From the IMG/VR virus record IMGVR_UViG_3300008120_010307: a stretch of 64,000 nucleotides of DNA; one strand, 5' to 3'. Below, piece after piece: positions 45,552-62,516 of the stretch. The DNA comes from an uncultured virus (IMG/VR IMGVR_UViG_3300008120_010307) (Duplodnaviria; Heunggongvirae; Uroviricota; Caudoviricetes). How positions within the stretch are numbered: the first letter of the stretch is position 1; every line of letters begins with the position of its first letter. The position numbers and the translations under genes are program-made. The notes under the pieces were generated by a model that did not search any database, had not been told where the DNA came from, and saw only the letters and a program-made list of their open reading frames with translations.

Positions 45552-45561
45552 ATTTATAAGT

Positions 45562-45738: not shown

Positions 45739-45740
45739 AA

Positions 45741-45771
45741 TTTGCCTTTTTCTTTTTTTTTCATATATTTG
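45741..45771 (+). promoter_or_regulatory. Bacteroidota-type sigma70 promoter
   Basis: TTTG, 19 nt, TATATTTG; ATG at 45776. Confidence 0.7.
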
Positions 45772-45775
45772 ACTT

Positions 45776-46615
45776 ATGCTAAGTTATATAGGTGGAAAAT
45801 CAAAAATTGGTAAATGGATTATTGAGTACTATCTCGAAGACATGGAGACATATGTGGAAACATTCGGGGGAATGTTTTGGTGTTTTTTCAATATGGATTT
45901 AGAAAAATTTCCAAATCTCAAAAGAGTGGTTTACAATGACTTCAATCCTTTGAATTATAATTTGTTCAAATGTGTACAAAATCCCGCTGAATTACAGAGG
46001 GCTTTGGATAACATCCCTGTACAAGAATACGGAACATCACTAACTGATATTAGCTTCAAAGATAGATTCAGAGAATTTCAAACTGAAATATTTTCTTCAG
46101 GTTTTACGATAAATTATCCTGATTATGAAGTTGCAGCAAAATATGTTTATGTTGTAACACAAGTTTTCAGTGGTTCAAAACCCGAAACATCGAGTTTTAT
46201 AGATTTAAAGGGAAAGTACAGGTCTAAATATTTAGCTTTCAGAGATAAGTTGTCAAACCCAAAGTGGGTAGAACATTTCTTGAAGATTACAAATGTAGAA
46301 AACTTAGATTTTCAAGAAGTAATAGAAAAGTATGATTCCCCCTCGACCTACATCTATTTAGACCCACCCTATTGGAAAACTGAAAACTATTATTCGAATC
46401 ATGACTTCGACCGACAGGACCATGAAAGACTCTCTGTAATTTTGAATCAAGTTCAAAGTAAATTTAGTTTATCATACTACGATTTCGATTTATTACATCA
46501 GTGGTATCCTGAATCTACCTTCCGATGGGAAAGAAAAAAATTCGCAAAGGCTGCCGCTGCAAAAAAGGGTACAAAACAAAATTTGGGTGAAGAGCTTTTG
46601 ATTATGAATTATTAG
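45776..46615 (+). CDS. Dam-like (D12 class) DNA adenine methyltransferase
   Basis: YIGGKS, YVETFGG, YNDFN, YLDPPY, LSY, ELLIMNY. Confidence 0.88.
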   Translation: MLSYIGGKSKIGKWIIEYYLEDMETYVETFGGMFWCFFNMDLEKFPNLKRVVYNDFNPLNYNLFKCVQNPAELQRALDNIPVQEYGTSLTDISFKDRFREFQTEIFSSGFTINYPDYEVAAKYVYVVTQVFSGSKPETSSFIDLKGKYRSKYLAFRDKLSNPKWVEHFLKITNVENLDFQEVIEKYDSPSTYIYLDPPYWKTENYYSNHDFDRQDHERLSVILNQVQSKFSLSYYDFDLLHQWYPESTFRWERKKFAKAAAAKKGTKQNLGEELLIMNY

Positions 46616-46657
46616 TTATTTTTACACTTTGATTGTATTTATATTAAAGTTTACTAA

Positions 46658-48010
46658 ATGAGATTCACCAATTTATTGAAGTCCATCATTTTGGAGGCAC
46701 AAGAAAAAATTGATTTTTTGATTGATACTTATGCTAAATCAAAAAAGAAGAAAGATGGTTCAATCAAAAAAGCAAAACTTACACCTAAAGAGTTGTCTAT
46801 CTTAGTTGCGGCTGACCCCGAAACAAATCTTCATAATGTTGAAATTCCAACCTCAGACGTGAAGGAATTGGCTAAAGTTAAAGCAGGACCATACTCTCCG
46901 TGGATTATCAAAAGATATTTGGAATTGAATCAGAATACTGAAATTCCTTATGGTGAATCAGGATATGAAAGAGAATTGAAGACGCTCAAGGATAGATTCA
47001 TGGAGGATTTGTACAAAATTACCGAGGATTTAAAAAAGTTCGATAGATTTAAATCAAGAATTCCTCAAGAACTAAGAGATATCAATAAGTTGACTCCTGA
47101 AAAATTATATGATATCGTAAAAGATTTCGATATAACAATCGCCACTACAACCAAAGCAGAAAGAAAATCTGCACCTGTACATCCTGGTGGGAAATTGGTT
47201 TTTGATTCACCTAATTTGAGAGTGGTTGAAATAACAGACAAAGGAAATTTGGGTAAAGAGGCGGCTTGTTTTTATGGTGGAAATCAACAAGAAACAAGAT
47301 GGTGTACATCAGCACCCGGTCTATCCCATTTTGATTATTATATCGGGAAAGGACCTCTATATGTAGTTTTTGACCCTTCAGACCCGAATGTTTCACCAAC
47401 AACAGGATTACCTGTTGAAAGATTCCAATTATCTTTCGAAACTGACCAATTCATGGACAGACATGACCATTCAATTGATATAATTGAAAAGTTGAATGGT
47501 CCTTGGAAGGAGCTCAAACAAGTGTTCAAACCTAAATTTGCAAGGGGTCTCACAACTGGCGGTACGAAACTTACTATTGATAATTTCAAACATGGTAATG
47601 TTGGTAAATTTGTGGCACTTTATGGTTTGGAGGAACTATTTGAAAGTTTACCTGATACCCTTGATGAAATTGCTATCTCACAAAAATCAGATAAGGGACA
47701 AAACATTGACATCAAGATTCCTGCTTCCATAAAAAGATTTAAAAATATGGAGGTAATATTGTTAGATAATTGTATTAGTTCTTTACCTGATGAAATTTGT
47801 GAACTGAAAGAATTGAAGTTTCTAAGCTTACTCAATAACCCCAACTTAAAAGAACTACCTGACTGTTTGAACAATCTCAAAAATTTGGCCTTCATCGCTC
47901 TTACAGGTAGTCCCAATGTTCGTATTCCTGAGTGGTTAAAGAAGAGAGGTAAAACCATGAGAAAAGACGATAGTAATGGTAATCTTTGGGATTTGGAATA
48001 TGATAAATAA
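46658..48010 (+). CDS. phage protein with C-terminal leucine-rich repeats
   Basis: AACFYG...TRWCTS central domain; LRR-like ILLDNCISSLPDEICELKELKFLSLLNNPNLKELPDCLNNLKNLAFIAL. Confidence 0.7.
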   Translation: MRFTNLLKSIILEAQEKIDFLIDTYAKSKKKKDGSIKKAKLTPKELSILVAADPETNLHNVEIPTSDVKELAKVKAGPYSPWIIKRYLELNQNTEIPYGESGYERELKTLKDRFMEDLYKITEDLKKFDRFKSRIPQELRDINKLTPEKLYDIVKDFDITIATTTKAERKSAPVHPGGKLVFDSPNLRVVEITDKGNLGKEAACFYGGNQQETRWCTSAPGLSHFDYYIGKGPLYVVFDPSDPNVSPTTGLPVERFQLSFETDQFMDRHDHSIDIIEKLNGPWKELKQVFKPKFARGLTTGGTKLTIDNFKHGNVGKFVALYGLEELFESLPDTLDEIAISQKSDKGQNIDIKIPASIKRFKNMEVILLDNCISSLPDEICELKELKFLSLLNNPNLKELPDCLNNLKNLAFIALTGSPNVRIPEWLKKRGKTMRKDDSNGNLWDLEYDK

Positions 48011-48022
48011 TTACTAAATTTG
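47992..48022 (+). promoter_or_regulatory. Bacteroidota-type sigma70 promoter
   Basis: TTTG, 19 nt, TAAATTTG; ATG at 48028. Confidence 0.65.
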
Positions 48023-48027
48023 TTTTT

Positions 48028-48312
48028 ATGAGTGTTGATGTAGAAATCTACATGAATAACATAATCAAATTTTTCAGAAATAATCCTAAGGATTTACAAA
48101 ATCTTGTGCCTCTTCACAAGGAAGATGAGTTTTATAAAAAAATTCGAGAGGTTGCAACTAAAAATTCGTCAGAAGGGAAGGAGATTAGTTTAACTCAAAA
48201 ACAATTATTGGACATTTGCGTTGTAATAAACGGAAAAGAACCCAAACCCGATGAAATTTTGGATGAAAGAGTTTTCATCCCTTCTCCATTTGGTTTTATT
48301 TGTTTGAATTAA
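48028..48312 (+). CDS. hypothetical protein
   Basis: 94-aa ORF. Confidence 0.5.
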   Translation: MSVDVEIYMNNIIKFFRNNPKDLQNLVPLHKEDEFYKKIREVATKNSSEGKEISLTQKQLLDICVVINGKEPKPDEILDERVFIPSPFGFICLN

Positions 48313-48329
48313 AATTTTTCTTATTTTTG
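48299..48329 (+). promoter_or_regulatory. Bacteroidota-type sigma70 promoter
   Basis: TTTG (48299-302), 19 nt, TATTTTTG; ATG at 48336. Confidence 0.6.
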
Positions 48330-48335
48330 TGTCCT

Positions 48336-49967
48336 ATGAATGACACAGTTATCTACAAAAAAGTTTTTCAAAGACATGTTTCGAGAGAAGCCCAAAACTA
48401 TTCCCTCATAGATAGTAACAAAAAAGAATATTACGACGGAGTCCACCCTTTTTTTGATTTTATATCAACATACAGAGACGAAGACACATTTAAGACTAAT
48501 CTTAAAAATCTTTTATTTACAATTATTCAAGACACTGTAACAATTTTGATTGAACAGAAAGAAGAAAAAATTTCTTTAAAAATTTTCCAAAAATCTTTTT
48601 CAAGAAAGGTTGGACTTCAATATTTTAAATTATATAAAAATATAAGGTATGTTACCGTCAACATGAAGTACGGTAATATATATTTTGGTGAAATGAACAA
48701 TTATCAGAATAAGAAAAAAGTCCATAAGAAAGTTCGTTCAAATTTCATCATAAATGATTCTTTCAAAACTTTCAGAACATCACTCAAGAACATAATCAAC
48801 GAATTCAGTGCGGACCAAAACACAGATGTTATAAACGAAGTATCTAGAATTTTTTTGGATAAAATAGACGGAGGCGTTAAAGGATTATCATTTGGAGATA
48901 GACTTTTCAAGTATTATTTAGATAAGAAACAAATAAAATACCCAAATAATTTTCCCTTATATTCAAACTTTCTTATTGGTAATTTCAGAAAAAAATTAAA
49001 AAAATTAGATAATAGATTGGTTGATACCTTCATGTTGATGAATGACATAAACGGAAAAAAATTAAAGAAAGTTCTCCATACTGCTAATCATCTAAATGTA
49101 TCAAACTATAAAGTCGGACTTAAACTATTCGGTTCCGATTGGATAAATCAAGATGAAAAATTATTGAAGGATATATTCAATAATCAAGTTAGTTTGGATT
49201 TGAGTGATAAACAAATATCACAATTTAATTTGCTGATTTGTCCTAAAGAAAAAAAGAGGGTTTTCCTTTTGTTTAAAACATTCAATTCGAATAATGAAAT
49301 TGATGAATGGACACTCAAAGACCACTTCCTTTTCTATATTCAATTGAAAAGTTTTGGGGAAACTGATATTGAGTGGAAATCTACAGATAACTCTGATTTT
49401 TTCAGAGAAGAGCATTTAGATTGGGTCAATAAGTTAGAACATTATAAGAATGGTACTTACAATAGAATTTATCCAAAAATTTATTATGAGGTAATTCAAA
49501 ATTTTCTAATAGGTGATATTCAGTTCTATCCTAAACTTCTCACTAATTCTTCGGAGTATAATAGTGAGAGTTCGATTCAAAGTAACTGTGTCAAAGGTTA
49601 TATTGGTAGAGTGAGTTCTATAATCATTTCACTAAGAAAGAATGATATAGATTCTAATGAAAGACTCACTATCGAATATAGAATTCATTATTTAAAAAAT
49701 TCAGATAAAAGTCATATAGACCGTGTTCAATGTTTGGGGAAATACAATAGCTTACCTGATAGTTCTTGGGATGAGCCTTTGAGAGTCTTGGATTCTCAGG
49801 TGAAAAAATTATTGAACGATTCTAATTTCCCTTTTTACAAACTAACTAAAGAATGTAGTAATGGGGTAAAATTCGAGTCAGATACAATGTTCAATCAGGA
49901 TGGTTATCTTGAATGGACTTACAAAGCTATTGATAATTCAGGTATGTCGGATTATTTTCTGTTTTGA
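48336..49967 (+). CDS. PcfJ-domain protein
   Basis: C-terminal ES..QSNCVKGY...IISLRK...RLTIE...QCLGKYN..P. Confidence 0.65.
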   Translation: MNDTVIYKKVFQRHVSREAQNYSLIDSNKKEYYDGVHPFFDFISTYRDEDTFKTNLKNLLFTIIQDTVTILIEQKEEKISLKIFQKSFSRKVGLQYFKLYKNIRYVTVNMKYGNIYFGEMNNYQNKKKVHKKVRSNFIINDSFKTFRTSLKNIINEFSADQNTDVINEVSRIFLDKIDGGVKGLSFGDRLFKYYLDKKQIKYPNNFPLYSNFLIGNFRKKLKKLDNRLVDTFMLMNDINGKKLKKVLHTANHLNVSNYKVGLKLFGSDWINQDEKLLKDIFNNQVSLDLSDKQISQFNLLICPKEKKRVFLLFKTFNSNNEIDEWTLKDHFLFYIQLKSFGETDIEWKSTDNSDFFREEHLDWVNKLEHYKNGTYNRIYPKIYYEVIQNFLIGDIQFYPKLLTNSSEYNSESSIQSNCVKGYIGRVSSIIISLRKNDIDSNERLTIEYRIHYLKNSDKSHIDRVQCLGKYNSLPDSSWDEPLRVLDSQVKKLLNDSNFPFYKLTKECSNGVKFESDTMFNQDGYLEWTYKAIDNSGMSDYFLF

Positions 49968-50302
49968 TGGATAGACACCAATATATTGTGAATTTAGAGA
50001 GAGATGGTAAATTTTTTTCTAATCTAAAATTTACCATACCTGATTTAACCATTCCTAAAAATTTGAAGGATAAAAGATATTTTCCGGTTTATTCGGAAAG
50101 AATTCTTGGTCCCAATAATAAAACAACCCTCAAAAACTACATATTAAAATCGGCACAAGGATTTTATTTGTGTTTCGATAAGTTGGAAAATGATTCATCT
50201 GAGGTGACTATTTATTTTGAAGAGAGTCAAGATATCGAATTACAATTTTTCGTAAATAATTTTTTAAAAACTTTCAAAAATGCAACAACTAACAACAAAT
50301 GA
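49964..50302 (+). CDS. hypothetical protein
   Basis: 112-aa ORF. Confidence 0.45.
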   Translation: MMDRHQYIVNLERDGKFFSNLKFTIPDLTIPKNLKDKRYFPVYSERILGPNNKTTLKNYILKSAQGFYLCFDKLENDSSEVTIYFEESQDIELQFFVNNFLKTFKNATTNNK

Positions 50303-50606
50303 ACTAAAAGAAAAAATCAATAACAGAGAAAACTTCATATTAGATTTATATGCTACGTGGTGCGGACCCTGTAAAATGATGTTGTTTAATTTAGATAAAT
50401 TAGAGGAGCATTTATCTAAAGAATCTGGAAATACTCCAAAATACGGAATTTATAAATTTGACATTGACTCAGATAGAGAATTCATAATGAGTGAGATGGG
50501 TATCAGAAGCGTACCAACAATCAAAATATTCAAAGAAGGAAAAGAAGTTTTTTCAAAAGCGGGAGTTATGTCTACTCTTGAAGTTCTAAATTTATTACAA
50601 AATTAA
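50280..50606 (+). CDS. trxA: thioredoxin
   Basis: YATWCGPCK, GIRSVPT. Confidence 0.9.
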   Translation: MQQLTTNELKEKINNRENFILDLYATWCGPCKMMLFNLDKLEEHLSKESGNTPKYGIYKFDIDSDREFIMSEMGIRSVPTIKIFKEGKEVFSKAGVMSTLEVLNLLQN

Positions 50607-50609
50607 AAT

Positions 50610-50909
50610 ATGTCAAAATTATCTGTTATAGTTTATACAATGAAGGGATGTCCTCATTGCAAAGACTTCAAAGAGTTATTAGTTAAAGAAGGAATCGAAT
50701 TTCACGATAGAGATATTGATGAATACGAGGAAGAGTATGATATATTTTCCAAAGTAACAGACAACGATATGATACCTGCTTTACTTGTCATAGAGGGAGA
50801 CCTTAAAAAACATGAATCTTTTTTATATGTTCCCGAAAAAAATTACAACGAGCTTACGGAAGCCGTAGATATTATAAGAGGACATCAAAAAAAATTAGGG
50901 ATTATCTAA
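50610..50909 (+). CDS. glutaredoxin-like protein
   Basis: VYTMKGCPHC, MIPA. Confidence 0.8.
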   Translation: MSKLSVIVYTMKGCPHCKDFKELLVKEGIEFHDRDIDEYEEEYDIFSKVTDNDMIPALLVIEGDLKKHESFLYVPEKNYNELTEAVDIIRGHQKKLGII

Positions 50910-51595
50910 ATTGAAATAATTCCTTTTATTTTCTTTTTTAAAAAATCTAAGTCTTTCTCATAAAAATTTAGTTCTTCGTTCCAATTAGATTCGATGACCT
51001 CCTTTTTGAATTTCTGAGCATTGGTATCTACACAATCTAAAAAAAGAGAGTTCAGAGTTTCTGAGACGGTGCCATCTTCCTCTTGAAATAAGATTTCTAT
51101 TTGACCTTTATCTTTTTTTATCGTTAGAAGTAATTTCTCAAAAACTAAATTAGGTGGTATATTGTATACTAGTCTTTTTGCAAAGAAATAAAGAAGTCGT
51201 CCCATTTCCAAAGAATAACCGAATGGAAACTTAGAACTAATGACAAGTTCGTCCGCCATTTCTAAAATTTCTTTTTTGATACTACAATTCTCTGAGTTAT
51301 AAAAAAAGCCTGAAAATTTTTTCACCTCTGATAGTTTACACCCATAGTCAATCAAATCTATGGTATTTAGAAGTTTCTTCTCATTTTTCAAGTCTGGATT
51401 TTTGGTATAAAATTCGTCTTTGACTTTGTTCAAATCTAATATTTCTTTAGAGGTGGTCTTCCCCTTTACAACGTAAAAATTTTCACAATCAACAACCTGA
51501 ATTATAGAATTTTCTTTGAATTGTATTTTAGATAAAATAAACTCTGAGAGAGAATTTACAAAAAATTCACGAGATGTTCTAGATAATATTTTCAT
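50906..51595 (-). CDS. hypothetical protein (weak resemblance to MetK N-terminal fold)
   Basis: 229-aa ORF; NSLSEFIL, VVKGKTTS..ILD, FGYS. Confidence 0.45.
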   Translation of the reverse strand: MKILSRTSREFFVNSLSEFILSKIQFKENSIIQVVDCENFYVVKGKTTSKEILDLNKVKDEFYTKNPDLKNEKKLLNTIDLIDYGCKLSEVKKFSGFFYNSENCSIKKEILEMADELVISSKFPFGYSLEMGRLLYFFAKRLVYNIPPNLVFEKLLLTIKKDKGQIEILFQEEDGTVSETLNSLFLDCVDTNAQKFKKEVIESNWNEELNFYEKDLDFLKKKIKGIISI

Positions 51596-51708
51596 CTTAT
51601 ATTTATTACTTCTTCAATCATAATTAATTTTTGAAAAATAATGAAGACTAACTAATATTTCCAAAACATTTAGTGTATTTGGATATTTATCATTAGTATT
51701 TAAAAAGG

Positions 51709-54700
51709 ATGGGAAAAAATATTTTAATTGTTCCGAGTAATTTCACTGAGAGGACTGCTAACCGTACTCCATTTATAAGTTATGAGGGTACCACGGGTCA
51801 GGTTATTCTGACGGTTACACCTTCAGGTAAAATTAAATTCAGCGGTAATACTGTTGGTGATACAAATTTGATGACAGTAGACCCTGCAAATTCTACAGTT
51901 TCAGTAAACACTATTTTTGTAGGAAATTACCTTGCAATAGGAGGGGTTCAGGTAATAAATGCCACAAACAATTGGATTGGACCCACAACAGGTATAGCTG
52001 GTTCTCAGGGTGCAAAAGGATTCAACGGAAATACAGGTCCTACGGGTGCAATAGGTAACACAGGAGCACAAGGTGCTATTGGTGCTGCAGGCGCCACAGG
52101 ACCTCAAGGTGCTCAAGGTACATTTGGGCCTAAGGGTGCTCAAGGAACTGCTGGAGCACAAGGAAATACGGGTGCTCAAGGTAACAATGGACCCAAGGGT
52201 GCCACAGGAGCACAAGGGTCAGCAGGTGCGCCAGGTAATACAGGTAACCCTGGACCTACAGGACAAAGTGGACACCCTGGTCCACAAGGACCAACGGGAG
52301 CCGTTGGTAATACAGGAGCACAGGGTGCGATTGGGGTTACAGGACCCACAGGTAATACAGGTGCTCAAGGACCTGTAGGACCAACAGGTGGACAAGGTGC
52401 TCAAGGACCACAAGGAGCTCAAGGTCCAAAAGGATTTTCAGGTGCACAAGGTGCAACAGGAAACACAGGTGGAACAGGACCCACAGGAAATACAGGACAT
52501 CCTGGCGCTCAGGGTGCTACAGGAAATCCTGGACCTACGGGTGTCACAGGGTCTCAAGGAGCCGTTGGACCCACCGGTGCTATAGGAGCTCAAGGACCCA
52601 AAGGAGCACAAGGGAATACTGGAAACACAGGGGCACAAGGAGCCACAGGAAATCCTGGTCCACAAGGTTTCACAGGTAATGTTGGTGCGGTAGGGCCCAC
52701 AGGTGCGATTGGTCCAAAGGGACCACAAGGACCTACAGGAAATACAGGTAATGTGGGACCACAAGGTGCCACAGGTACCACAGGCCCAACAGGTGATACA
52801 GGAGCTACAGGACCTGCAGGACCACAAGGTGCTGTGGGACCAAAAGGAGACACAGGTAATACGGGGGCTCAGGGTGCTGTGGGGCCACAAGGAGCAACTG
52901 GTCCGACAGGACTTTCAGGTGCTCAAGGTGCCCAAGGTGGGGTAGGACCGACAGGGGCTACAGGACCACAAGGAGCTCAAGGACCTGCGGGTAATACGGG
53001 TCATTCTGGTGCACAAGGTGCTACAGGACCAACAGGGCCTGGAGGTAACACAGGTGCTCAAGGGGCGGTTGGACCGAAAGGGGCTACAGGACCTCAGGGA
53101 GCTCAAGGACCCGCAGGTGGTACAGGTAACACAGGGGCTCAGGGTGCCACAGGACCACAAGGTTCACAAGGGGCGGGTGGTGGAACAGGTCATCCAGGTG
53201 CCCAAGGTCCCCAAGGAGCGATAGGACCACAAGGTTCACAAGGAGCCACAGGACACACTGGTGCTCAAGGCCCACAAGGTGCCACAGGACCACAAGGCTC
53301 ACAAGGGGCTACAGGACATCCTGGTGCCCAAGGTAGTCAGGGTGCGGCCGGACCAAAAGGACCTAATGGATTCACAGGTCATCCTGGAGCGCAAGGACCG
53401 CAAGGTTCAGCGGGAGCAACGGGTGCTCAAGGTCAGACAGGTCATCCGGGGGCACAAGGTGCAGGTGGACCTACTGGGTCTCAAGGACAAGGGGGTGGTA
53501 CAGGACATCCTGGAGCTCAAGGTGCCATAGGACCCAAAGGACCTCAAGGACCTACAGGTGCTACTGGCCATCCTGGTGCTCAAGGTGCTGGTGGAGGTAC
53601 TGGTAACGAGGGGGCACCAGGTTTCACAGGACATCCAGGTGCACAAGGTGCTACAGGACCAGGAGGTAGTCCGGGTGCTCAGGGTTCACAAGGTTCCCAA
53701 GGACCTCAAGGAGCTCAAGGAAATACCGGTCCGACCGGCGTACCGGGAGCTACGGGGCATCCTGGTGCTCAAGGAGCGGTCGGTCCAACTGGCCCACAAG
53801 GTCCGTCAGGTAATACAGGACATCCTGGTGCACAGGGAGCAACGGGTCCTACAGGACCTCAAGGAAATACAGGTGCCACGGGTGCTATTGGACCCCAAGG
53901 TGCGGGAGGTGCCACAGGCTCACAAGGGGCTGTAGGACCTCAAGGAGCAACTGGAGCCACAGGAGCCCAAGGTCCACAAGGTCCAGGTGGTCCTACAGGA
54001 CCTGGCGGGGCACAAGGTGCTCAAGGAGGAGGAGGTGCCACAGGACCTCAAGGACCACAAGGTCCAAAGGGACCTCAGGGTGCTACAGGTCCTACAGGGG
54101 GTCCTGGTCCAACTGGACCACAAGGTCCTCAGGGACCAACAGGAGCACCTGGACCTACAGGTGCCACAGGACCACAAGGTCCTACAGGTGGTCAAGGTAC
54201 ACAAGGCTCATTAGGTGCAACAGGAGGGCAGGGTGCTCAAGGTTCCCAAGGAGCTGTTGGACCTGGAGGTGTAACATGTCAACTGAATAGTATTATTGCT
54301 CTTACAGGAAGTAGAAACCCATGTGTAGGTGTTTGTAATATCACTGTACCCAACGTTTATCCATACACTCAAACTGCTTACACAGCCACACAAAACAAAT
54401 ATTTCGATGCTACGAATTGTTCAAATGGTACTTGTGATTGGAATACTTATAACTGGGAACAATGGAATAGTGCATGTTATTCATTAAACGCCACTTGTGG
54501 TAATGGTACCTATCAGCAGGCTTGTGCTTATTCTGACGTGAAACTTAAAACAGGTATTGAAACCTTGAAAGATTCTCTTATAAAAATATTGGAAATAGAA
54601 ACTGTTGAGTATGATTGGAACGAAAAAAATTGGGGTACCAAAGAAGAGTATGAATATTTTGCTCAGATGGGAAGATTACATCAGATAGGTCTAATTGCAC

Positions 54701-54870
54701 AAAACGTAAGAATTCATTTCCCTGAAGCTGTTGGAATCGGTCCTGATGGATATTATTACATTGACTACAAGAAATTAAATTCTGTTGTAGTTGAAGGTAT
54801 AAAAGAACAACAAGTATTTATTGAAGAGATAACTAAACAAGTAGACGAATTAGAAATTAAATTGAGATAA
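51709..54870 (+). CDS. collagen-like fibre protein A with Cys-rich tip and S74 intramolecular chaperone
   Basis: G-X-Y from 51991 to 54276 (254 triplets), then an 8-Cys domain, then SDVKLK..I...W...IGLIAQ...FPEAV...IDY. Confidence 0.9.
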
Positions 54871-57854
54871 TGCCATCTAATGTAATTATATATCCTACCG
54901 GTAGAACGTGGAACACTGACCCTCATTTTATTTTTGATGATGGAACTAATAAATTACAATTCAACGTTTTAACTGACGCAATAAGTCTGTCTGCTGGGTC
55001 AATTTCAAATAATTTTGTAATTGGTACAAAAGGTTCAGACAATGGTGTCACAACCTCAGGGGCTTCCGCACAGTCACTATATTTCAACGCCTCACAATTC
55101 ATAGGTTCTGGAGGTGTTTGGGTCGGACCAACTGCCGGTATCGCTGGTGCTCAGGGAGCTCAAGGTGCTCAGGGAGCCCAAGGTGGTCAGGGAGCTCAAG
55201 GAGCTCAAGGTGCAAATACAGGAGCTCAAGGTGCTACAGGTGCCCAAGGAGCAACAGGCGCACAAGGTGCGGCAAACACAACACAAGGTGCTCAAGGTAC
55301 AATTGGGTCTCAAGGAGCTCAGGGTGCCACAGGAGCTCAGGGTGGAAATACGGGTGCTCAAGGAGCCACAGGAGCTCAAGGTAACCAAGGAGCTCAAGGT
55401 GCTCAAGGAGGAACAGTTGGAGCTCAGGGTGCTCAGGGTGGTCAGGGAGCTCAAGGTGCTCAAGGTGCTCAAGGTGCAAACACAGGTGCTCAGGGTGCGA
55501 CAGGTCCCCAAGGAGCCCAAGGAGCGGTAGGTGCTACAGGAGGAGTTCAAGGTGCTCAAGGTGCCGTCGGTGCCACAGGTGATTTAGGTGCTCAGGGAGC
55601 TCAAGGAGCCAATACCGGAGCCCAAGGTGCTCAAGGTGCACAGGGAACTCAAGGTGCACAAGGTGCTCAGGGAGGAAATACTGGTGCACAAGGTGCTCAG
55701 GGTACTCAGGGTACACAAGGTGCTACAGGTGCTCAAGGAGGAGTACAAGGTGCTCAAGGTGCTATAGGTACTACAGGACCACAAGGTGCTCAAGGGGCCC
55801 AAGGGGCAAACACAGGAGCTCAAGGTGCTCAAGGTGGTCAAGGTGCTCAAGGAGCTCAAGGTGCTCAAGGAGGAGTACAAGGTGCTCAAGGGGCTACAGG
55901 TCCTACGGGGGTACAAGGAGCACAAGGTGCACAAGGAGGAGTACAAGGAGCACAAGGTGCAACAGGACCTCAAGGAGCTCAAGGGGCTCAGGGATTACAA
56001 GGTGGACTTCAAGGTGCCCAAGGTGCAACAGGTGCTCAAGGTGCACAAGGTTCTACAGGTGCTCAAGGAGGTACCCAAGGAGCTCAAGGTGCCACAGGAC
56101 CACAAGGTGCACAAGGAGCAATAGGAGCTCAAGGAGGAGTACAAGGTGCTCAGGGTGCAACAGGAGCAGCGGGAGCTCAAGGTGCTCAAGGAGCCCAAGG
56201 TGCAAATACAGGTGCTCAAGGCGCCACAGGACCTCAAGGTGCTCAGGGGGCGACAGGAGCCCAAGGGGGTGTACAAGGTGCTCAAGGCGCCACAGGTCCT
56301 CAAGGTGCTCAAGGTGCTCAGGGGGCTCAAGGTGCAAATACAGGAGCTCAGGGTGCTACAGGTCCTCAAGGTGCTCAAGGTGCTCAGGGAGCCCAGGGTG
56401 CCAGTCCAGGTGCTCAGGGCGCTCAAGGTCCAAAAGGACCTCAAGGTGCTCAAGGAGCCCAAGGTGGAAGTGCAGGTGCCACGGGTGCGCAAGGTGCAAC
56501 AGGTCCTCAAGGAGCTCAAGGTGCCCAAAGTGGTATAACAGGACAGGCAGGAGCTCAGGGTGCTACAGGTCCCCAAGGGGCACAAGGTGCTCAAGGTGGA
56601 AGTGCCGGTGCTACAGGAGCAGTCGGTGCACAAGGAGCTACAGGAGCACAAGGAGCCCAAGGTGCTAATCAAGGAGCACAAGGTGCTACGGGTGCTACAG
56701 GAGCTCAAGGTGCTCAAGGTGCTCAAGGTGCTAATCAAGGAGCCCAAGGTGCGACAGGTCCACAAGGTGCTCAGGGTTCACAGGGTGCACAAGGTGCTAA
56801 TCAGGGAGCACAGGGGGCTCAAGGAGCTCAAGGTGCTCAAGGTTCTCAGGGAGCACAAGGAGCCAATCAGGGTGCACAAGGTGCTACAGGTCCACAAGGT
56901 GCACAAGGTGCAATTGGACCAAATAATACGACACAAGGTGCTCAAGGTGCTCAGGGAGGTCAAGGTACTCAGGGAAGTCAAGGAGCACAGGGTGCTAACC
57001 AAGGCGCTCAAGGGGCACCTGGAGTTCAAGGAGCTCAAGGAGCACAAGGTGCACAGGGTGCTAATCAAGGGGCTCAGGGAGCACCTGGAGTTCAAGGAGC
57101 TCAAGGTGCTCAAGGTTCTCAAAGTGCTACTTCGGGAGCACAAGGTTCTACAGGACCTCAAGGTGCTCAAGGTTCTACAGGACCCGGTCCTGGTCCGCAA
57201 GGAGCCCAAGGTCCACAAGGATTGACTGGAGGTGGAGGGAACACAGGTGCACAAGGGTCCCAAGGAGCTACAGGAGCCACGGGTCCTACAGGTGCTCCTG
57301 GTGGAACAGGAGCCACAGGTGCTCAAGGAGCCACAGGATTTGCTGGAAGCACTCAGGGTGCTCCAGGTGTACCAGGACCACAGGGGGCTCAAGGTCCGAC
57401 AGGTGTTGGTGGTGCCACAGGCCCAACAGGCCCAACAGGTTTCAAGGGGAATACAGGCCCAACAGGCCCAACAGGTGCCACAGGTGCTCAGGGAGCACAA
57501 GGCGCTAAGTCAGATAAAAGATTAAAAGATAATATAGTTGAATTCAAAGAACCTCTCACCCGTCTGAAACAAATCCAAGGTGTTAAATTTACTTGGGACC
57601 ATGAACATCCTAAAATTAAATTTCATAAGCACCTGAATGCTAAAGAAGCGTTCACAGGTGATACTTATGGATTCATAGCTCAAGATGTAGAAAAAGTATT
57701 TCCTGAGATTGTTGACACTGACCCAACTGATGGATACAAATCTATGGATTATGGACTCTTGGTTAGTTTAGCCTTCGCATCAATTAAAGAGAATCAAAAA
57801 AGAATATTGTCAGTGAAAGATAGAATAAATAGATTAAAACAAGTAGTGAACTAA
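54870..57854 (+). CDS. collagen-like fibre protein B with periodic interruptions and S74 chaperone
   Basis: Repeat region 55137-57509 with a 22-aa period; SDKRLKDNI...GVKFTW...[16 protein letters not shown]. Confidence 0.9.
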
Positions 57855-60800
57855 TGGCATCATACGTAGTATATTCAGGGACGAGTTATCTAAATGCGTG
57901 TAATTCTGTGGCATCACAGACTATTTATACACCGTGTCCATCACTAAGTGGAGGTTGTGTAGTCTATACAGATGCAGGTTATACTAATGTTATTACTTTC
58001 TCTCCATTATTACCTAATTTATATCTAAAGGATTCTGTTGATACAACGGTTTGGAAGATAAATAGGACAGGAACTGTCACGGAGGTTAGAAAATGTACTG
58101 AATTTTCAGGTGATGAAAATATAATTGTTTATCCTGATGGAGCCAATTTTCAACTTATAGATTCTGGAGGAACTGCCACTAACTGGTATATGGAGAATGG
58201 TGAGTTGAAATTTGGAACTTTAACTTCCACTTTAGCAAGAATAAGTACTTCCTATCCAAACCTCAGAGTCAGTGGGGGGTCAATAACACTTACTAACAAA
58301 CTTGCAAATGCCTCGGGAGATTTAATAAATTCAACAGGATGGGTCGGAGCTAAATTACCTCAAGGTCCAACGGGTGCTCAAGGTTCACAAGGTTCTACTG
58401 GTGCTCAAGGAGCTCAAGGGGGTCAAGGAGCACAGGGTACCCAAGGTTCAACAGGTGCCCAAGGTTCTCAGGGTGCTCAAGGGGGACAAGGTGCTCAAGG
58501 TGCTCAAGGGTCACAAGGACCTACAGGTGCACAAGGTTCACAAGGTGGTCAAGGTTCACAAGGCTCACAAGGTTTTACAGGTGCTCAGGGTTCACAAGGA
58601 GCTCAAGGAGGACAAGGTGCTCAGGGTTCACAAGGAACTTTGGGACCCACAGGAGCTCAAGGTTCTCAAGGTGGTCAAGGAGCCCAAGGAGCCCAAGGTT
58701 CAACAGGTGCTCAAGGTTCGCAAGGAGCACAGGGTGGACAGGGCGCTCAAGGTTCACAAGGGGCTAAAGGTCTCACAGGTGCTCAAGGGGCACAAGGTGG
58801 ACAAGGTGCCCAAGGTGCTCAAGGTTCCCAAGGTACAACAGGAGCCCAAGGTTCCCAAGGGGGACAAGGTGCTCAAGGTGCTCAAGGCGCAGTTGGTCCT
58901 ACAGGTGCTCAAGGAGCTCAGGGTGGACAAGGGGCTCAAGGAGCTCAAGGGGCTGTCGGTCTCACAGGAGCTCAAGGAGCTCAAGGTGGGCAAGGTGCTC
59001 AAGGAGCACAAGGGGCTCTCGGTCCTACAGGAGCTCAAGGTTCCCAAGGTGGACAGGGTGCTCAAGGAGCACAAGGTTCACAAGGTTTAACAGGTGCGCA
59101 AGGGTCCCAAGGTGGTCAAGGAGCTCAAGGAGCTCAGGGAGGACAAGGTGCTCAAGGTGCCCAAGGTCCTAAAGGTCCACAAGGTGCTCAAGGAGCCCAA
59201 GGTGCTCAAGGTTCAACAGGAGCCCAAGGTTCCCAAGGTGGAACAGGAGCCCAAGGTGCTCAAGGTTCAACAGGAGCCCAAGGTTCACAAGGTTCACAAG
59301 GTGGAACAGGAGCCCAAGGTGCTCAAGGTTCAACAGGAGCCCAAGGTTCACAAGGTTCCCAAGGAGGACAAGGTGCCCAAGGGGCTCAAGGTACAACAGG
59401 TGCCCAAGGAGCTCAAGGAGCTACAGGAGGTCAAGGTGCTCAGGGTTCTCAAGGACCCACAGGAGCCCAAGGTTCTCAAGGTGCCGGAGGAGGACAAGGT
59501 GCACAAGGAGCTCAAGGTATAGTTGGAGCCCAAGGTGCTCAAGGTGGAGGTGGAGGACAGGGTGCACAAGGAGCACAAGGAACGACAGGTCCCGTAGGTG
59601 CACAAGGTTCACAAGGTGGGCAAGGTGCTCAAGGTTCCCAAGGTGCACAAGGTGCCACAGGAGCTCAAGGTTCTCAGGGCGTCGCCGGAGCTCAAGGTGC
59701 TCAAGGTGCTCAAGGAGCTGTTGGTAGTCAAGGTTCACAAGGAGGACAGGGTGCACAAGGAGCTCAAGGTTCACAAGGAGCTCAAGGTGCAACTGGTCCT
59801 GGTGGCGGACAAGGTGCTCAGGGAGCACAAGGAGCCACAGGTTCACAAGGTGCTCAAGGTGGAGGTGGTGGACAAGGTGCCCAAGGTGCTCAAGGGCCCG
59901 TCGGTTCACAAGGTTTTCAAGGAACAACTGGAGGTCAAGGTGCACAAGGTGCGCAAGGACCTACTGGACCTACAGGTATCACAGGACCTAAAGGGGGTCA
60001 AGGTGCACAAGGTGCTCAGGGAGGACAAGGTGCACAGGGACCACAAGGTCATATCGGTGCAAACGGTGCAACTGGTGTTCCTGGTCCTATTGGTCCCAAA
60101 GGACCTACGGGTCCTACGGGAGGTCAAGGTGCTCAAGGAGCTCAAGGACCTGGTGGTGCTCAAGGGGCTCAAGGTCCTACGGGAGGTCAAGGTGCTCAAG
60201 GAGCTCAAGGACCTGGTGGTGCTCAAGGGGCTCAAGGTCCTACGGGAGGTCAAGGTGCCCAAGGTCCCAAAGGTCCAATAGGTGGACAAGGTTCTCAAGG
60301 TCCCACAGGGGCTCAGGGTACCGCCGGAGGACAAGGTTCTCAAGGCGGTGGTGGTGCCCAAGGTGCTCAAGGTGCTCAAGGTCCGCAAGGAGGCCAAGGT
60401 GCTCAAGGCGGTGGTGGTGCCACAGGAGCTCAAGGACCTCAGGGGGGTCAAGGTGCCCAAGGACCACAAGGTGGTCAAGGTCCACAAGGTGCACAAGGTG
60501 CAACCGGTCCAAATGGTTTACAAGGTGCTCAAGGTGCACAAGGTACCACTGGTTCTGACCTAAGATTAAAAAAGGACGTAAAAGAAATACAATCCCCACT
60601 AGAAAAAGTCCTGAAATTGAGAGGTGTTTCATTCTATTGGAATAAATTAAATGATGAAACATCCCAATCAGGTAAACATGATATTGGATTCATTGCCCAA
60701 GAAATAGGTCATATATTACCTGAATTGGTTTTCAAGAAAAACACCGAGAACGCATATTTCATGGTAAAATATGCTGAAGTAATAGCTGTTTGTTTAGAAG

Positions 60801-60889
60801 CCATTAAAGAACAATCCTTGATTTTGGAATCTAAAGAAATAAAACTTGATGAGTTAGAGACAATAGCCAAGGAAAGAGGACTTATTTAG
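57854..60889 (+). CDS. collagen-like fibre protein C with S74 chaperone
   Basis: G-X-Y from 58364 to 60550 (243 triplets); SDLRLKKDV...LRGVSFYW...[14 protein letters not shown]. Confidence 0.9.
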
Positions 60890-61737
60890 ATTTCGGTCTT
60901 TTGAATTAAATCTCTTATTTCGAAACCAGTTTGGTATAACATCGACAGAAATTTTTTCCAAATTTCTGGGTTATACTTTTTAATCAATTCAACATAATAA
61001 ATGTAGTAAGGTTCTTCTCCTCCTCTCTCAGACATAAAATCTGCAAGTTGAGGATTATCGGTGGTTAAATTTTTGAAAACTCTGATAAGGTCATTTCCCA
61101 AATGTTCATCATTTATTCTAAATAAAATATCCTTCGAGAGTTTAGATAGTGGGTCACCCTTGGCAAAATAATTGATTATATTTTTTAATGATTTTTCTAA
61201 AAATTGTAGGTTTTCAATTTTTCTGTTTCTTTTAACTCTTCTTTCAAATTCGAGAACCAAACCCTCCAAAAATTCATTTGAAATTGCAAAAAATTCTATT
61301 GGATGACCCCAATAATCTTTATCTGATTTCTCATTGTAAGTCACCATATATTTGGGACTAAACAAATGAGATTGTGTTGGGTCACTGGCATGTATCATTT
61401 CATGATATAGTGTAAGATAAAGTGTTTTTTTTGACTCGTAGTGTTTTGGATTTACTTCGATTACAATATCTGCCGGGTCGACTGACTTTTGAGGTTTTGT
61501 ACCCATCTGACCCATGTAGGGTAGTCTTGGGTTTACCACGACTCTAGCTAAACCCTCTACTCCATCGGCTAATTTAAAAGGAATGACATCAACTAGTTCT
61601 TTTCCTTTATAAGGTTTATTTCTATCAGACCATAATTTTTCTGTGACGGATTTCATTCTATCTCTCACATCATCAGAAAATTTATATCTCTGTGCCTCCA
61701 ATATTAGATTGGTGATTATATTTCTTATTTTAGTCAT
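60886..61737 (-). CDS. HExxH zinc-metalloprotein-like protein
   Basis: [11 protein letters not shown]...Y..HPIEFFA; likely start at [16 protein letters not shown]. Confidence 0.6.
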
Positions 61738-62516
61738 TTTTGTAAATCTACCCCCCAATTTATTGGAATCTCTTTAAGACTTATTTTACTTACGAATTTA
61801 TCAAAAGCGTTCTTGAAGGTCACCTGAGCTTTCTTGATGTCTTTAATTCTTGCCATATCAGGTAAAATCCCTGTAGATAAATATGCTTGAATCTCATCAT
61901 CAATTACATTTTCACCATAACCCATGTTTTTGATTTTTCTTGTCATGGAATCTAATGTAGATGGATTTAGGTTATTGATATTATAAGATTGTAAGTTTTT
62001 ATAGTTAGGTGAACTATACCACAACCCATGTGCTAGTTCATGATAGATTAAACTCAAGTCCTCTCCATCTGTTTGGTCGATACCGATTAAATAAAAATTG
62101 TTGTTACCTGTTTTTTCTTTTATGGTATCAATAATTGAAAACATAATAAGGTCAAAATAATTTATGTCAGGAATCACTTTTATACACGATTCGATTGAAT
62201 CACACGGTAAATTATAACCAGACCAATCTTCATGATATGTGAAAATGTCATTCTTGGTTTTTTCCTTATAGAATTTTACAAAGTCAACCCACTTGAAGCC
62301 TTGTCCTCTGAATGTCTCTGAGTCTGACTCATAAAATTCCTGATAACGCATGAAAACCCGGGCACGTAGTTTGTCATCTTTGATTACAACGGCAAAAATC
62401 TTTGGGAATATCTCAAACAATCTAATCTTAGATAGAATGTTTTTAATATTCTTCGGGGGGTTTTTAGGTGGACTTTGAACCCTCTCATGAATGGTATTTA
62501 TACTTTTATTATTCAT
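61734..62516 (-). CDS. HExxH-containing hypothetical protein
   Basis: FMRYQEFYES, DWSGYNLP, IYHELAHG, DDEIQAY. Confidence 0.6.
   Translation of the reverse strand: MNNKSINTIHERVQSPPKNPPKNIKNILSKIRLFEIFPKIFAVVIKDDKLRARVFMRYQEFYESDSETFRGQGFKWVDFVKFYKEKTKNDIFTYHEDWSGYNLPCDSIESCIKVIPDINYFDLIMFSIIDTIKEKTGNNNFYLIGIDQTDGEDLSLIYHELAHGLWYSSPNYKNLQSYNINNLNPSTLDSMTRKIKNMGYGENVIDDEIQAYLSTGILPDMARIKDIKKAQVTFKNAFDKFVSKISLKEIPINWGVDLQK

What the first reader, a model, noticed from the sequence alone, without database searches (positions are those of the whole stretch)
51709..60889. Three coupled collagen genes with matched length and register: candidate heterotrimeric phage collagen fibre
Seen: three paralogues behind one TATTTAT box are joined by TAATG overlaps (54870, 57854). 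They share an N-terminal motif (NILIVP/NVIIYP/NIIVYP ... WIGP/WVGP/WVGA) and each ends in an S74 chaperone. By manual count the repeat regions hold 254, 253 and 243 units. All show a 7-unit period: GHP/GNT recurring in A, the tetrapeptide in B, GGQ in C. Only A has a tip domain; B and C run straight from collagen into the chaperone and would have no C-terminal head as homotrimers. Known: characterised prokaryotic and phage collagens and S74 chaperones are homotrimers. Inference: a 1:1:1 heterotrimer whose chains are selected and registered by three different chaperones, analogous to procollagen C-propeptides.
Basis: partly seen in the sequence, partly recalled or inferred. Interest (0 to 1): 0.85.

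Follow-up and report, generated by a model that had tools for sequence, protein, structure and literature searches.

The report
Three-chain mixed collagen phage fibre
Three neighbouring genes of a large uncultured phage most likely each supply one strand of a single, roughly 220-nm collagen triple helix, a mixed-chain design described so far only for animal collagens; the case is strong but rests on sequence comparison alone.

Summary
Window 51709-60889 carries three overlapping genes (A 1053 aa, B 994 aa, C 1011 aa). Each is built as N-domain, about 250 Gly-X-Y triplets, then a Peptidase_S74 chaperone. Only A has an 85-aa Cys-rich tip. Only B has one extra residue about every 7 triplets.

Comparative evidence favours the heterotrimer reading.
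- All related loci with room on the contig hold exactly one chain of each type.
- Among 24 distinct triads, rod length runs from 98 to 366 triplet units. The three rods agree within 2 units in 15 of 24; no more than 3 triads agreed within 3 units (16 observed) in any of 100,000 shuffles.
- The agreement is in triplet number, not residue number. B's extra residues and 92-241-aa domains inserted in a single chain are not compensated.
- Mismatches cluster near multiples of 7.
- The most recent 7-triplet duplication lies at the same unit index in different chains in 32 of 90 chain pairs (5.7 expected).

A model of the three C-terminal regions passes its controls, but it cannot separate hetero- from homotrimers. 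Breaks do not line up between chains, and nothing physical has been tested.

This scan noted the same architecture on seven other genomes, with split verdicts. I found no report of it in print.

Best reading: an A:B:C collagen fibre, about 0.65. Main rival: three register-locked homotrimers.

The parts
51684..51690 (+). TATTTAT motif about 20 nt upstream of gene A, followed by AAAGGA 4 nt before the ATG
   Evidence: Read directly. L001 has GTATTTATA at a similar distance upstream of its A gene. Function not tested.
51709..54870 (+). Chain A (1053 aa). N_A domain aa 1-94; 254 uninterrupted Gly-X-Y triplets aa 95-856 (nt 51991-54276); Cys-rich tip aa 857-941 (nt 54277-54531); S74 chaperone aa 942-1053.
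   Evidence: The tip is hypervariable, with four invariant Cys in 23 A-type sequences. The tip is modelled at pLDDT about 76-94 and has no PDB match.
54870..57854 (+). Chain B (994 aa). N_B domain aa 1-89; 250 triplets in 33 runs aa 90-880 (nt 55137-57509), with one extra residue about every 7 triplets (32 breaks: 29 of one residue, 3 of four); S74 chaperone aa 881-994.
   Evidence: The +1 breaks are a constant of B-type chains: 9 to 44 per chain in all 24 triads.
57854..60889 (+). Chain C (1011 aa). Window-specific N-extension aa 1-85; N_C domain aa 86-170; 244 uninterrupted triplets aa 171-902 (nt 58364-60559; the last one, GSD, holds the cleavage Ser); S74 chaperone to aa 1011.
   Evidence: The 85-aa extension is absent from the other 22 C-type sequences aligned.
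53755..53880 (+). Chain A units 196-209: two adjacent 7-triplet modules, 43 of 63 nt identical (a local high of the profile)
56982..57113 (+). Chain B units 196-209: the most similar pair of adjacent modules in B (59 of 66 nt; identical protein)
60110..60235 (+). Chain C units 194-207: the most similar pair of adjacent modules in C (63 of 63 nt)
50906..51595 (-). Upstream flanking gene X (229 aa, no confident family). It bounds the cassette.
   Evidence: Homologues flank the triad in L001 and lie directly beside gene Y in L002, where the cassette is absent.
60886..61758 (-). Downstream flanking gene Y (290 aa, weak Peptidase_M91-like hit). It bounds the cassette.

Best explanation
The three genes encode the three different strands (A, B, C) of one heterotrimeric collagen-like fibre of a large uncultured phage.

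Shown:
- The genes overlap stop-to-start.
- Each chain is an ~85-aa N-domain, a rod of about 250 triplets and an S74 domain. The S-D-x-x-x-K part of the cleavage motif is invariant in all three chain types.
- Relatives always keep one chain of each type.
- The rods stay equal in triplet number while the shared length varies nearly four-fold.
- New 7-triplet modules appear at the same level in different chains.

Inferred:
- Translational coupling gives roughly 1:1:1 chains.
- The three diverged S74 domains (26-32% identical to each other, about 50% within a type) form a pseudo-threefold heterotrimer. It selects one chain of each kind, sets the register, and nucleates a triple helix that zips from the C-terminus to the N-terminus.
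- B's extra residue every 7 triplets bulges out about every 6 nm without adding rise. It lies within about one or two triplets of C's Gly-Gly-X and A's Gly-His/Asn-X triplets.
- The S74 domains then cut themselves off. This leaves a rod of about 220 nm (254 x 0.86 nm) with a single Cys-rich head from chain A at the far end. The three homologous N-domains form the virion anchor at the near end.
- Fibre length evolves by gain or loss of 7-triplet modules, matched at the same level in all three genes.
For: 1. Completeness. All 19 loci found with the A-type C-terminus hold three adjacent collagen genes. In L018 the tip-bearing gene is split into three ORFs. Searches with the B-type and C-type S74 alignments found no locus with a B- or C-type collagen gene lacking partners, except where a contig end cuts it. 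L002 has the two flanking genes adjacent and no cassette.

2. HMM typing. Every triad has one each of N_A, N_B, N_C and S_A, S_B, S_C. This holds even in L109 and L017, where the N-to-S linkage is permuted between chains; in L017 the first chain's N-type call is ambiguous.

3. Length. Across 24 distinct triads the range is 98-366 units. Pearson r is A-B 0.995, A-C 0.983, B-C 0.980. The spread (max minus min) is <=2 in 15 of 24 and <=3 in 16 of 24; at most 3 triads reached <=3 in 100,000 shuffles. Raw triplet counts give r 0.990, 0.984, 0.977. With the metagenome loci added there are 38 non-identical complete triads: spread <=2 in 18 and <=3 in 22.

4. The matched quantity is triplet number. 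The median |A-B| is 1 unit by triplet units but 6.5 by residue span/3. Domains inserted in a single chain leave the counts matched: A 221+92 aa gives 139/140/139; B 154 aa gives 216/215/216 (A from L252, B and C from L258); C 183 aa gives 264/265/263 (A from L259, B and C from L262); A 219 aa plus C 153 aa gives 184/183/181.

5. Co-located duplications. The index of the most similar adjacent 7-unit modules agrees within 5 units in 32 of 90 chain pairs of 30 triads. The expectation is 5.7 and the maximum in 200,000 simulations was 18. All three chains agree within 6 units in 7 of 30 triads. In the window the peaks are B 196 and C 194.

6. Junctions overlap at both joints in 36 of 38 triads.

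7. Model of the three C-terminal regions (partner B). Score 0.69, best of 3 controls 0.21. That mark was reached by 116 of 157 solved complexes and 2 of 215 mismatched pairs. The runs agree in at least 83% of their contacts and the partner's pLDDT is at least 73. A's tip residues 17-124 are not named among the confident interface residues. Like complexes (S74 homotrimers) are solved, so the pass may be from memory.

8. Predicted S74 core layers carry type-specific residues: A Leu 21/23, B Gly 22/24, C Cys 22/24; then A Glu 23/23, B Gly 18/24, C Glu 22/24.

9. Human heterotrimeric collagens tolerate breaks present in only some chains (PMC11923368, passages read).
Against: - Breaks do not line up between chains. 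In the window B has 32 breaks while A and C have none. Elsewhere 14-29-aa irregular stretches occur in one or two chains only.
- Nine of 24 triads (20 of 38 in the larger set) differ by more than 2 units. Examples: 173/159/172, 131/160/145, 340/346/272, 100/142/125.
- In the window itself C is 10 units shorter than A.
- All characterised S74 domains (my recall) and all prokaryotic collagen-like proteins (PMC8968730, passage read) are homotrimers.
- The complex model cannot tell ABC from AAA, BBB or CCC.
- The triplet-unit measure (each short break rounded to whole triplets, inserts over 30 aa left out) was defined after I had seen the data.
- The relative phase of the periodic features is not independent evidence. 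It follows from conserved N-terminal phase plus equal length.
- The contigs are short-read metagenome assemblies of repetitive DNA.
- Three earlier agents of this scan, working on other genomes, judged such trios to be separate fibres.
Confidence: 0.65

Rival explanations
1. Each chain forms its own homotrimer (A3, B3, C3), kept apart by three orthogonal S74 chaperones. The three rods then pack side by side in axial register as one nine-chain fibre or share both end attachments. Triplet number and module positions must therefore match.
For: Homotrimers are the rule for S74 proteins (my recall) and for prokaryotic collagen-like proteins (PMC8968730, passage read). Three diverged, type-conserved S74 domains would also suit a role in preventing mixed trimers. 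In a homotrimer a one-residue insertion in all three chains keeps the stagger, so non-aligned breaks between chains are no problem. In-register lateral packing would also explain matched counts and co-located duplications.
Against: In B3 the 9-44 extra residues should add rise. Yet B matches A by triplet number and not by residue span: median difference 1 against 6.5. B and C would be bare rods with no distal domain after cleavage. The rods are almost uncharged and, in B and C, hold only about 4% Pro, which gives little to hold separate helices together laterally. B-type S74 has Gly-x-Gly where A and C have Leu/Cys and Glu in the predicted core. I recall no in-register bundle of three different triple helices over 100-300 nm.
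Confidence: 0.22
2. The chains form three independent homotrimeric fibres (whiskers or tail fibres) that need only roughly the same reach. Equal lengths reflect selection on fibre length alone.
For: This is the conventional reading of phage collagen-S74 fibre genes (PHROG tail-fibre hits). Some triads are mismatched by 7-74 units and are presumably still viable if the assemblies are right. Three earlier agents of this scan preferred this reading on other genomes.
Against: Agreement within 0-2 triplets (under 2 nm in 85-310 nm) in 15 of 24 triads is far tighter than flexible fibres would need. Inserted 92-241-aa domains are not compensated. Recent duplications are co-located between chains, 32 of 90 pairs against 5.7 expected, which total-length selection does not predict. 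Mismatches keep the 7-unit phase.
Confidence: 0.08
3. Mixed trimers of other stoichiometry form (for example A with two B, or variable combinations), or only two of the chains share a helix.
For: A and B match most exactly (|diff| <=1 in 14 of 24). C deviates more often: in the window by -10, in L016 by -68.
Against: One of each N-type and S-type is kept in every triad. A-C agreement (|diff| <=1 in 15 of 24) is as good as A-B. Both junctions are overlapped.
Confidence: 0.05

Closest known systems
Complement C1q (A, B and C chains) and other animal ABC heterotrimeric collagens such as types IV, VI and IX (own knowledge; heterotrimer alignments and incommensurate breaks from PMC11923368, passages read; review PMC12562938, term search only)
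   Same: Three paralogous chains from neighbouring genes. The collagen regions are equal in length. A C-terminal non-collagen domain is thought to choose and register the chains. Breaks are present in only some chains.
   Different: Here the host is a phage. The C-terminal domain is a self-cleaving S74 chaperone, not gC1q or NC1. The rod is 3-10 times longer than that of C1q. No hydroxyproline is expected and there is almost no charge. One chain has a strictly periodic one-residue insertion. Membership in the sense of physical heterotrimer formation is untested.
Procollagen C-propeptides of fibrillar collagens (PMC5353611, abstract from a search listing only; otherwise own knowledge)
   Same: A C-terminal domain directs chain selection and nucleates C-to-N folding, and is then removed.
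   Different: Removal there is by a separate protease (BMP-1). Here it is presumably autoproteolysis at a Ser-Lys site. The folds are unrelated.
Phage fibres and spikes with a C-terminal intramolecular chaperone (Peptidase_S74): K1F endosialidase (3GW6), GA-1 appendage (3GUD), T5 L-shaped fibre pb1 (4UW8); eukaryotic MyRF ICA domain (7DC3)
   Same: Pfam S74 is matched by all three chains. S and D, with Lys five residues after the Ser, are invariant in all three types; the Arg is invariant in B and C only. The fold of A's S74 part matches 7DC3 at E 2.5e-4, and 3GUD/3GW6 weakly.
   Different: The solved examples are homotrimers of one gene product (recalled). Here three diverged types are always kept together, with type-specific residues in the predicted core.
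Heterotrimeric gp37-like tail fibre of virophage DSLV2, made from three consecutive genes (PMC12724248, passages read)
   Same: Three neighbouring paralogous fibre genes are reported to form a 1:1:1 heterotrimer. That report rests on co-purification and AlphaFold3 scores higher for the hetero- than the homotrimers.
   Different: That fibre is about 16 nm long and has a beta structure. It has no collagen and no S74; a search of that paper's text for 'collagen' and 'chaperone' found 0 occurrences.
Prokaryotic and phage collagen-like proteins (Scl1/2, BclA, prophage collagen-like tail fibres; PMC8968730 passages; PMC3368898 listing only)
   Same: Gly-X-Y rods without hydroxyproline, rich in Thr, Gln and Ala, flanked by trimerisation domains. 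PHROG tail-fibre families match.
   Different: Those proteins are described as homotrimers (PMC8968730). Here the comparative data point to three different chains in register.

Membership tests
Collagen triple-helix repeat proteins (PF01391) | Long uninterrupted or nearly uninterrupted Gly-X-Y repeats | tested here: met
   Pfam E 3e-94, 1.7e-65 and 1.1e-68. Counts are 254, 250 and 244 triplets.
Peptidase_S74 intramolecular chaperone (PF13884) | Sequence match to the family above the curated cut-off | tested here: met
   36.2, 49.0 and 52.7 bits against a cut-off of 22. The fold of A's S74 part matches MyRF ICA 7DC3 at E 2.5e-4.
Peptidase_S74 intramolecular chaperone (PF13884) | Conserved Ser at the cleavage site with Lys five residues later (the Ser-Lys dyad is recalled from the endosialidase work) | tested here: met
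   S, D and K are invariant in 23 A-type, 24 B-type and 24 C-type sequences. Cleavage itself was not tested.
Peptidase_S74 intramolecular chaperone (PF13884) | Homotrimeric assembly of identical chains | not testable with these tools
Heterotrimeric (ABC) collagens | Three distinct chains with collagen regions of equal length | tested here: met
   254/253/244 units in the window. The three rods agree within 2 units in 15 of 24 distinct triads over a range of 98-366.
Heterotrimeric (ABC) collagens | All three chain types always present together | tested here: met
   One each of N_A, N_B, N_C and S_A, S_B, S_C in every triad typed. No partial sets were found except at contig ends. The cassette is wholly absent in L002.
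Heterotrimeric (ABC) collagens | Chains aligned in register along the helix | tested here: inconclusive
   For: the match is by triplet number, with inserts and B's extra residues ignored, and recent duplications are co-located. Against: breaks are not aligned between chains. Such incommensurate breaks occur in human heterotrimers (PMC11923368).
Heterotrimeric (ABC) collagens | Physical 1:1:1 assembly into one triple helix | not testable with these tools
   This needs co-expression, pull-down, native mass spectrometry or EM.
Phage tail fibre | Attachment to a baseplate or tail, with neighbouring structural genes | tested here: inconclusive
   PHROG tail-fibre families match, largely through the collagen repeats. 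The neighbours are not structural genes: thioredoxin- and glutaredoxin-like proteins by my reading of their sequences (not scanned), and unknowns. The N-domain model has no structural match (best E 0.48). A head or a tail attachment both remain open.

The most novel reading that the evidence does not exclude
This would be a natural ABC heterotrimeric collagen outside animals. Three self-cleaving S74 chaperones act as an orthogonal, traceless chain-selection and registration device. The rod is built from 7-triplet modules in which one chain carries a one-sided bulge every ~6 nm. Its length is tuned in evolution by adding the same module to all three genes.
Probability: 0.6. Interest if true: 0.9.

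Novelty: new variant of a known kind. Interest (0 to 1): 0.8.

Why it matters
Heterotrimeric collagens are treated as an animal invention. The review of prokaryotic collagen-like proteins that I read in passages calls them homotrimers (PMC8968730). A 2025 review of heterotrimeric collagens holds none of the words bacteria, prokaryot or virus (PMC12562938, term search).

A phage ABC collagen would be an independent origin of chain selection and registration. It would also be the first heterotrimeric use of the S74 chaperone.

Making register-defined heterotrimeric collagen in bacteria is a standing practical problem (PMC8968730, passage). Three short, self-removing S74 domains that pick one chain of each kind would be a ready tool, and this can be tested directly by co-expression.

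For phage biology the family offers fibres of 85-310 nm with a single-copy, hypervariable head. Its natural series of length variants reveals the rule of its construction.

Tried and rejected
- No whole genome is held for the window.
- The phage database has no close relative. It gave only 66-74% identity over 150-380 nt, to two uncultured phages of about 640 kb and others. B's N-domain gave no tblastn hit.
- Gene X found no relatives in viral contigs.
- The genome-contig scan gave only fragments binned into freshwater MAGs, so no host can be named.
- The N-domain profile has no match to a solved structure beyond its collagen triplets. Its AlphaFold model (pLDDT 68) has no fold match (best E 0.48). 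The attachment site is therefore unknown.
- The tip domain has no PDB fold match.
- I looked for alignment of breaks between chains as a heterotrimer test and found none.
- I considered the relative phase of the periodic features, measured from the C-terminus, as independent evidence (B-C in two adjacent bins in 23 of 25, 0 of 20,000 shuffles). I rejected it as independent because it follows from conserved N-terminal phases plus equal lengths.
- Gene conversion between the paralogues as the cause of equal lengths is rejected. The co-located duplicated modules have quite different sequences in A, B and C, and B alone carries the insertions.
- Recent triplication in each lineage is rejected. Chain types are orthologous across loci: about 50% identity within a type against 26-32% between types.
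- A reading of TATTTAT as a T4-type late promoter was not pursued. TATAAATA is enriched in the window (17 against 5.7 expected) on both strands, but the copy before gene A is not an exact match.
- Literature searches for a phage, viral or bacterial heterotrimeric collagen found none.
Full report
**What is there**

The window is low-GC DNA (about 30%). It has the gene content of a large phage:
- a sigma-70-type factor;
- SbcC/SbcD-like nuclease subunits;
- a primase and a pyrimidine-dimer glycosylase;
- Dam-type methylases and a DnaJ homologue;
- a block of glycosyltransferases and methyltransferases.

Between 52 and 61 kb the GC content rises to 48-58%. This is the signature of Gly/Ala/Pro codons.

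Three ORFs lie on the + strand there: 51709-54870 (A, 1053 aa), 54870-57854 (B, 994 aa) and 57854-60889 (C, 1011 aa). At both junctions the stop TAA and the start ATG share a base. All three proteins match Pfam Collagen and Peptidase_S74 above the curated cut-offs.

The anatomy by script:

| Chain | N-domain | Rod | After the rod |
|---|---|---|---|
| A | 94 aa | 254 uninterrupted triplets | 85-aa tip with eight Cys, then S74 |
| B | 89 aa | 250 triplets in 33 runs, joined by 29 one-residue and 3 four-residue breaks | S74 directly |
| C | 170 aa | 244 uninterrupted triplets | S74 directly |

When the three rods are written in rows of seven units from the N-terminus, the periodic feature of each chain holds one column for about 210 units:
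- A's Gly-His-X sits in column 0 (12 of 13);
- B's four-residue unit sits in column 1 (29 of 32);
- C's Gly-Gly-X sits in column 6 (27 of 38).

The N-domains are distant homologues (22-23% identity; profile comparison). The S74 domains are 26-32% identical to each other.

**Relatives**

The downstream neighbour gene found two viral contigs.
- L001 has the same three genes in the same order between the same two flanking genes.
- In L002 the two flanking genes are adjacent and there is no collagen gene.

The cassette therefore comes and goes as a whole.

Further searches used alignments of each chain type:
- An alignment of A's tip plus S74 found 19 viral loci. Each holds three adjacent collagen genes. 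In L018 the tip-bearing gene is split into three ORFs.
- Alignments of the B-type and C-type S74 domains found 79 and 80 loci. Most are unrelated S74 proteins. Every locus with a B- or C-type collagen gene is a complete triad unless a contig end cuts it.
- A metagenome scan added 80 loci, many of them short. A few short contigs show a B ORF that ends early (L232, L236, L249, L263). I take these as frameshifts or assembly errors but cannot show it.

Contigs carrying triads reach 317 and 321 kb, so at least some of these phages are jumbo phages.

Profile typing shows that every triad has exactly one N_A, N_B and N_C and one S_A, S_B and S_C. Within a type the sequences are about 50% identical across loci. 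In L109, and similarly in L017 and L194, the linkage is permuted (L194 by gene order and architecture only; it was not HMM-typed; in L017 the first chain's N-type call is ambiguous):
- N_A sits on the chain with B's insertions and S_B;
- N_C sits on the chain with the tip and S_A;
- N_B sits on the chain with S_C.

The set is conserved. Which N goes with which C is not.

**Length coupling**

I counted triplet units as Gly-X-Y triplets plus each short break rounded to whole triplets. Inserts longer than 30 aa were left out. This measure was fixed after I had seen that raw counts already co-varied. Raw counts give r = 0.990, 0.984 and 0.977.

Across 24 distinct triads (window plus viral contigs) the shared length runs from 98 to 366 units. 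Examples are 98/99/98, 154/154/154, 155/155/155, 195/195/194, 216/216/215 and 270/270/269.
- Pearson r is 0.995 (A-B), 0.983 (A-C) and 0.980 (B-C).
- The three values lie within 2 units in 15 of 24 triads and within 3 in 16 of 24.
- In 100,000 shuffles of B and C among loci, at most 3 triads reached a spread of 3 or less.
- With the metagenome loci there are 38 non-identical complete triads, 18 within 2 units and 22 within 3.

Three features say that what is conserved is the number of triplets and not physical length.
- B is longer than A by a median of 6.5 triplet-lengths in residues, but by a median of 1 in triplet units. B's 9-44 extra residues do not count.
- Globular inserts in one chain only are not compensated in the others:

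| Insert | Unit counts A/B/C |
|---|---|
| 180-aa PA14 domain in A (L001) | 173/159/172 (mismatched) |
| 221+92 aa in A | 139/140/139 |
| 154 aa in B | 216/215/216 (A from L252; B, C from L258) |
| 183 aa in C | 264/265/263 (A from L259; B, C from L262) |
| 219 aa in A plus 153 aa in C | 184/183/181 |
| 241 aa in the chain bearing N_A and S_B (L109) | 221/220/222 |

- The mismatches that do occur cluster near multiples of seven: 7, 13-15, 27-29, 42 and 68-74. Contigs whose other tabulated features are the same differ by 7 (B of L233 137, of L234 144). These may be real repeat-unit polymorphism or short-read collapse of repeats; I cannot tell which.

**Co-located duplications**

For each chain I scored the DNA identity of each 7-unit module to the next one along the rod.

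In the window the most similar pair in B starts at unit 196 (59 of 66 nt; the proteins are identical). The most similar pair in C starts at unit 194 (63 of 63 nt). A shows a local rise at 196 (43 of 63 nt). The three duplicated modules have unrelated sequences, so this is not gene conversion.

I dropped eight near relatives, which left 30 triads.
- The peak positions of two chains agree within 5 units in 32 of 90 pairs, against 5.7 expected for uniform positions.
- The maximum in 200,000 simulations was 18.
- All three peaks lie within 6 units in 7 of 30 triads.
- The shared positions range from 12% to 79% of the rod, so this is not a common preference for the middle.

Whole-profile correlations are positive (median r 0.45; z > 2 in 43 of 90 pairs, z < -2 in none). 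A shared layout of periodic middle and irregular ends contributes to these correlations.

Selection on total length alone does not predict that compensating duplications fall at the same level. In-register contact of the chains does.

**Other tests**

Phase. The relative phase of the periodic features measured from the S74 junction is very tight. It follows from conserved N-terminal phases plus equal lengths, so I do not count it separately.

Complex model. I modelled the last eight triplets plus the C-terminal region of A, B and C, with alignments of 23-24 orthologues and B as the partner.
- The model supports binding; it does not show it.
- Score 0.69, best of 3 controls 0.21. That mark was reached by 116 of 157 solved complexes and 2 of 215 mismatched pairs.
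- The runs agree in at least 83% of their contacts and the partner's pLDDT is at least 73.
- The confident interface holds the collagen residues and the S74 parts of all three chains. A's tip residues 17-124 are not named in it, which would fit a tip that loops out, though an unnamed residue is no evidence that it does not touch.
- S74 homotrimers are solved, so the pass may come from likeness. It cannot separate ABC from homotrimers.

Core layers. At positions that the model places in the helical core, the chain types carry different conserved residues:

| Layer | A | B | C |
|---|---|---|---|
| 1 | Asn 23/23 | Val 24/24 | Ile/Val 24/24 |
| 2 | Leu 21/23 | Gly 22/24 | Cys 22/24 |
| 3 | Glu 23/23 | Gly 18/24 | Glu 22/24 |

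This asymmetry suits a pseudo-symmetric heterotrimer. It is only suggestive because it rests on a model.

Composition. A holds 12.5% Pro, B 4.2% and C 4.4%. Charged residues are nearly absent.

**Against the heterotrimer**

- Breaks do not coincide between chains.
- In the window, one chain would have to bulge 32 times against two perfect chains.
- C is 10 units short in the window itself.
- A third of the triads are mismatched.
- All precedent is homotrimeric.

In mitigation, human heterotrimeric collagens contain breaks present in only some chains (PMC11923368, passages). Most larger 'breaks' here are short Gly-X-Y runs flanked by Gly substitutions or by one or two extra residues.

**Verdict**

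The three chains are physically coupled in axial register. The simplest structure that explains the following observations together is one A:B:C triple helix, nucleated and registered by a heterotrimer of the three S74 domains, which then remove themselves:
- matching by triplet number;
- indifference to one-chain inserts;
- co-located module gains;
- overlapping genes;
- B and C having no distal domain;
- the conserved set of three N-types and three S-types, with free linkage between them.

I put this at about 0.65. Three homotrimers locked side by side in register is the serious rival (about 0.2).

**Known or new**

My searches of the held literature found no phage, viral or bacterial heterotrimeric collagen. 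The nearest precedent is a non-collagen heterotrimeric fibre from three consecutive virophage genes (PMC12724248, passages).

This scan has noted the same architecture on seven other genomes, none close in sequence to this one. Those follow-up verdicts were split between a mixed helix and separate fibres. They are not independent evidence.

Noticed in passing
window 1-948 (+), 5' open: A fourth collagen-like ORF (50 triplets seen) has a different 163-aa C-terminal domain (phrog_17490 / phrog_28536) and no S74. It lies beside a 12-kb block of glycosyltransferases, methyltransferases, an acetyltransferase-like hexapeptide protein and a sugar nucleotidyltransferase (2-14 kb). These could glycosylate Thr-rich collagen rods.
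   Followed up: partly
window 57854-58108 (chain C aa 1-85): The window's chain C has an 85-aa N-terminal extension with four Cys. It is absent from all 22 other C-type sequences aligned. The same chain is 10 triplet units shorter than A and B. A terminator-like hairpin (57905-57920) and a TATTTATA (57922-57929) lie inside the extension.
   Followed up: partly
L002 9204-10844: A related viral contig has the two flanking genes directly adjacent and no collagen cassette. The triad is therefore an all-or-none insertion or deletion in this phage group.
   Followed up: partly
window, 17 sites (for example 14540, 40681, 42190, 46636): TATAAATA, the T4 late-promoter-like octamer, is enriched: 17 copies against 5.7 expected, reached by 0 of 100 shuffles. 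Copies on either strand lie 10-25 nt before several gene starts.
   Followed up: no
L131, L133, L135, L143, L150, L164, L169: Viral contigs encode single proteins of about 2,600-2,900 aa (N-terminus MEYLGGNP...) with 146-171 collagen triplets near the N-terminus, a very long non-collagen part, and an S74 domain related to the C-type. This is a different, single-gene use of collagen plus S74.
   Followed up: no
L017-L021, L109, L194: In two sub-groups the gene order and the linkage of N-domain type to C-terminal type are permuted between the three chains, yet the set of three N-types and three S-types is kept. L129/L130 triads have no tip domain on any chain.
   Followed up: partly
L018 5011-10336: The tip-bearing chain is split into three ORFs in one contig. 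The contigs L017 and L019-L021, otherwise identical in their tabulated gene lengths and break patterns, have it intact. This is a frameshift or an assembly error.
   Followed up: no
window 44492-45409, 35985-36782, 50280-50909: The phage encodes a full DnaJ (J domain, zinc-finger centre and C-terminal domain) and a sigma-70-family factor. From the sequences alone, adjacent ORFs look thioredoxin- and glutaredoxin-like (CGPC / CPHC motifs). They lie just upstream of a cassette whose tip domain has eight Cys.
   Followed up: no
window 44000-51700 against the phage database: The only DNA-level matches are short (146-377 nt, 66-74% identity), to two uncultured phages of 635 and 642 kb (LR745206.1, LR756502.1). 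No close sequenced relative is in the phage collection.
   Followed up: no
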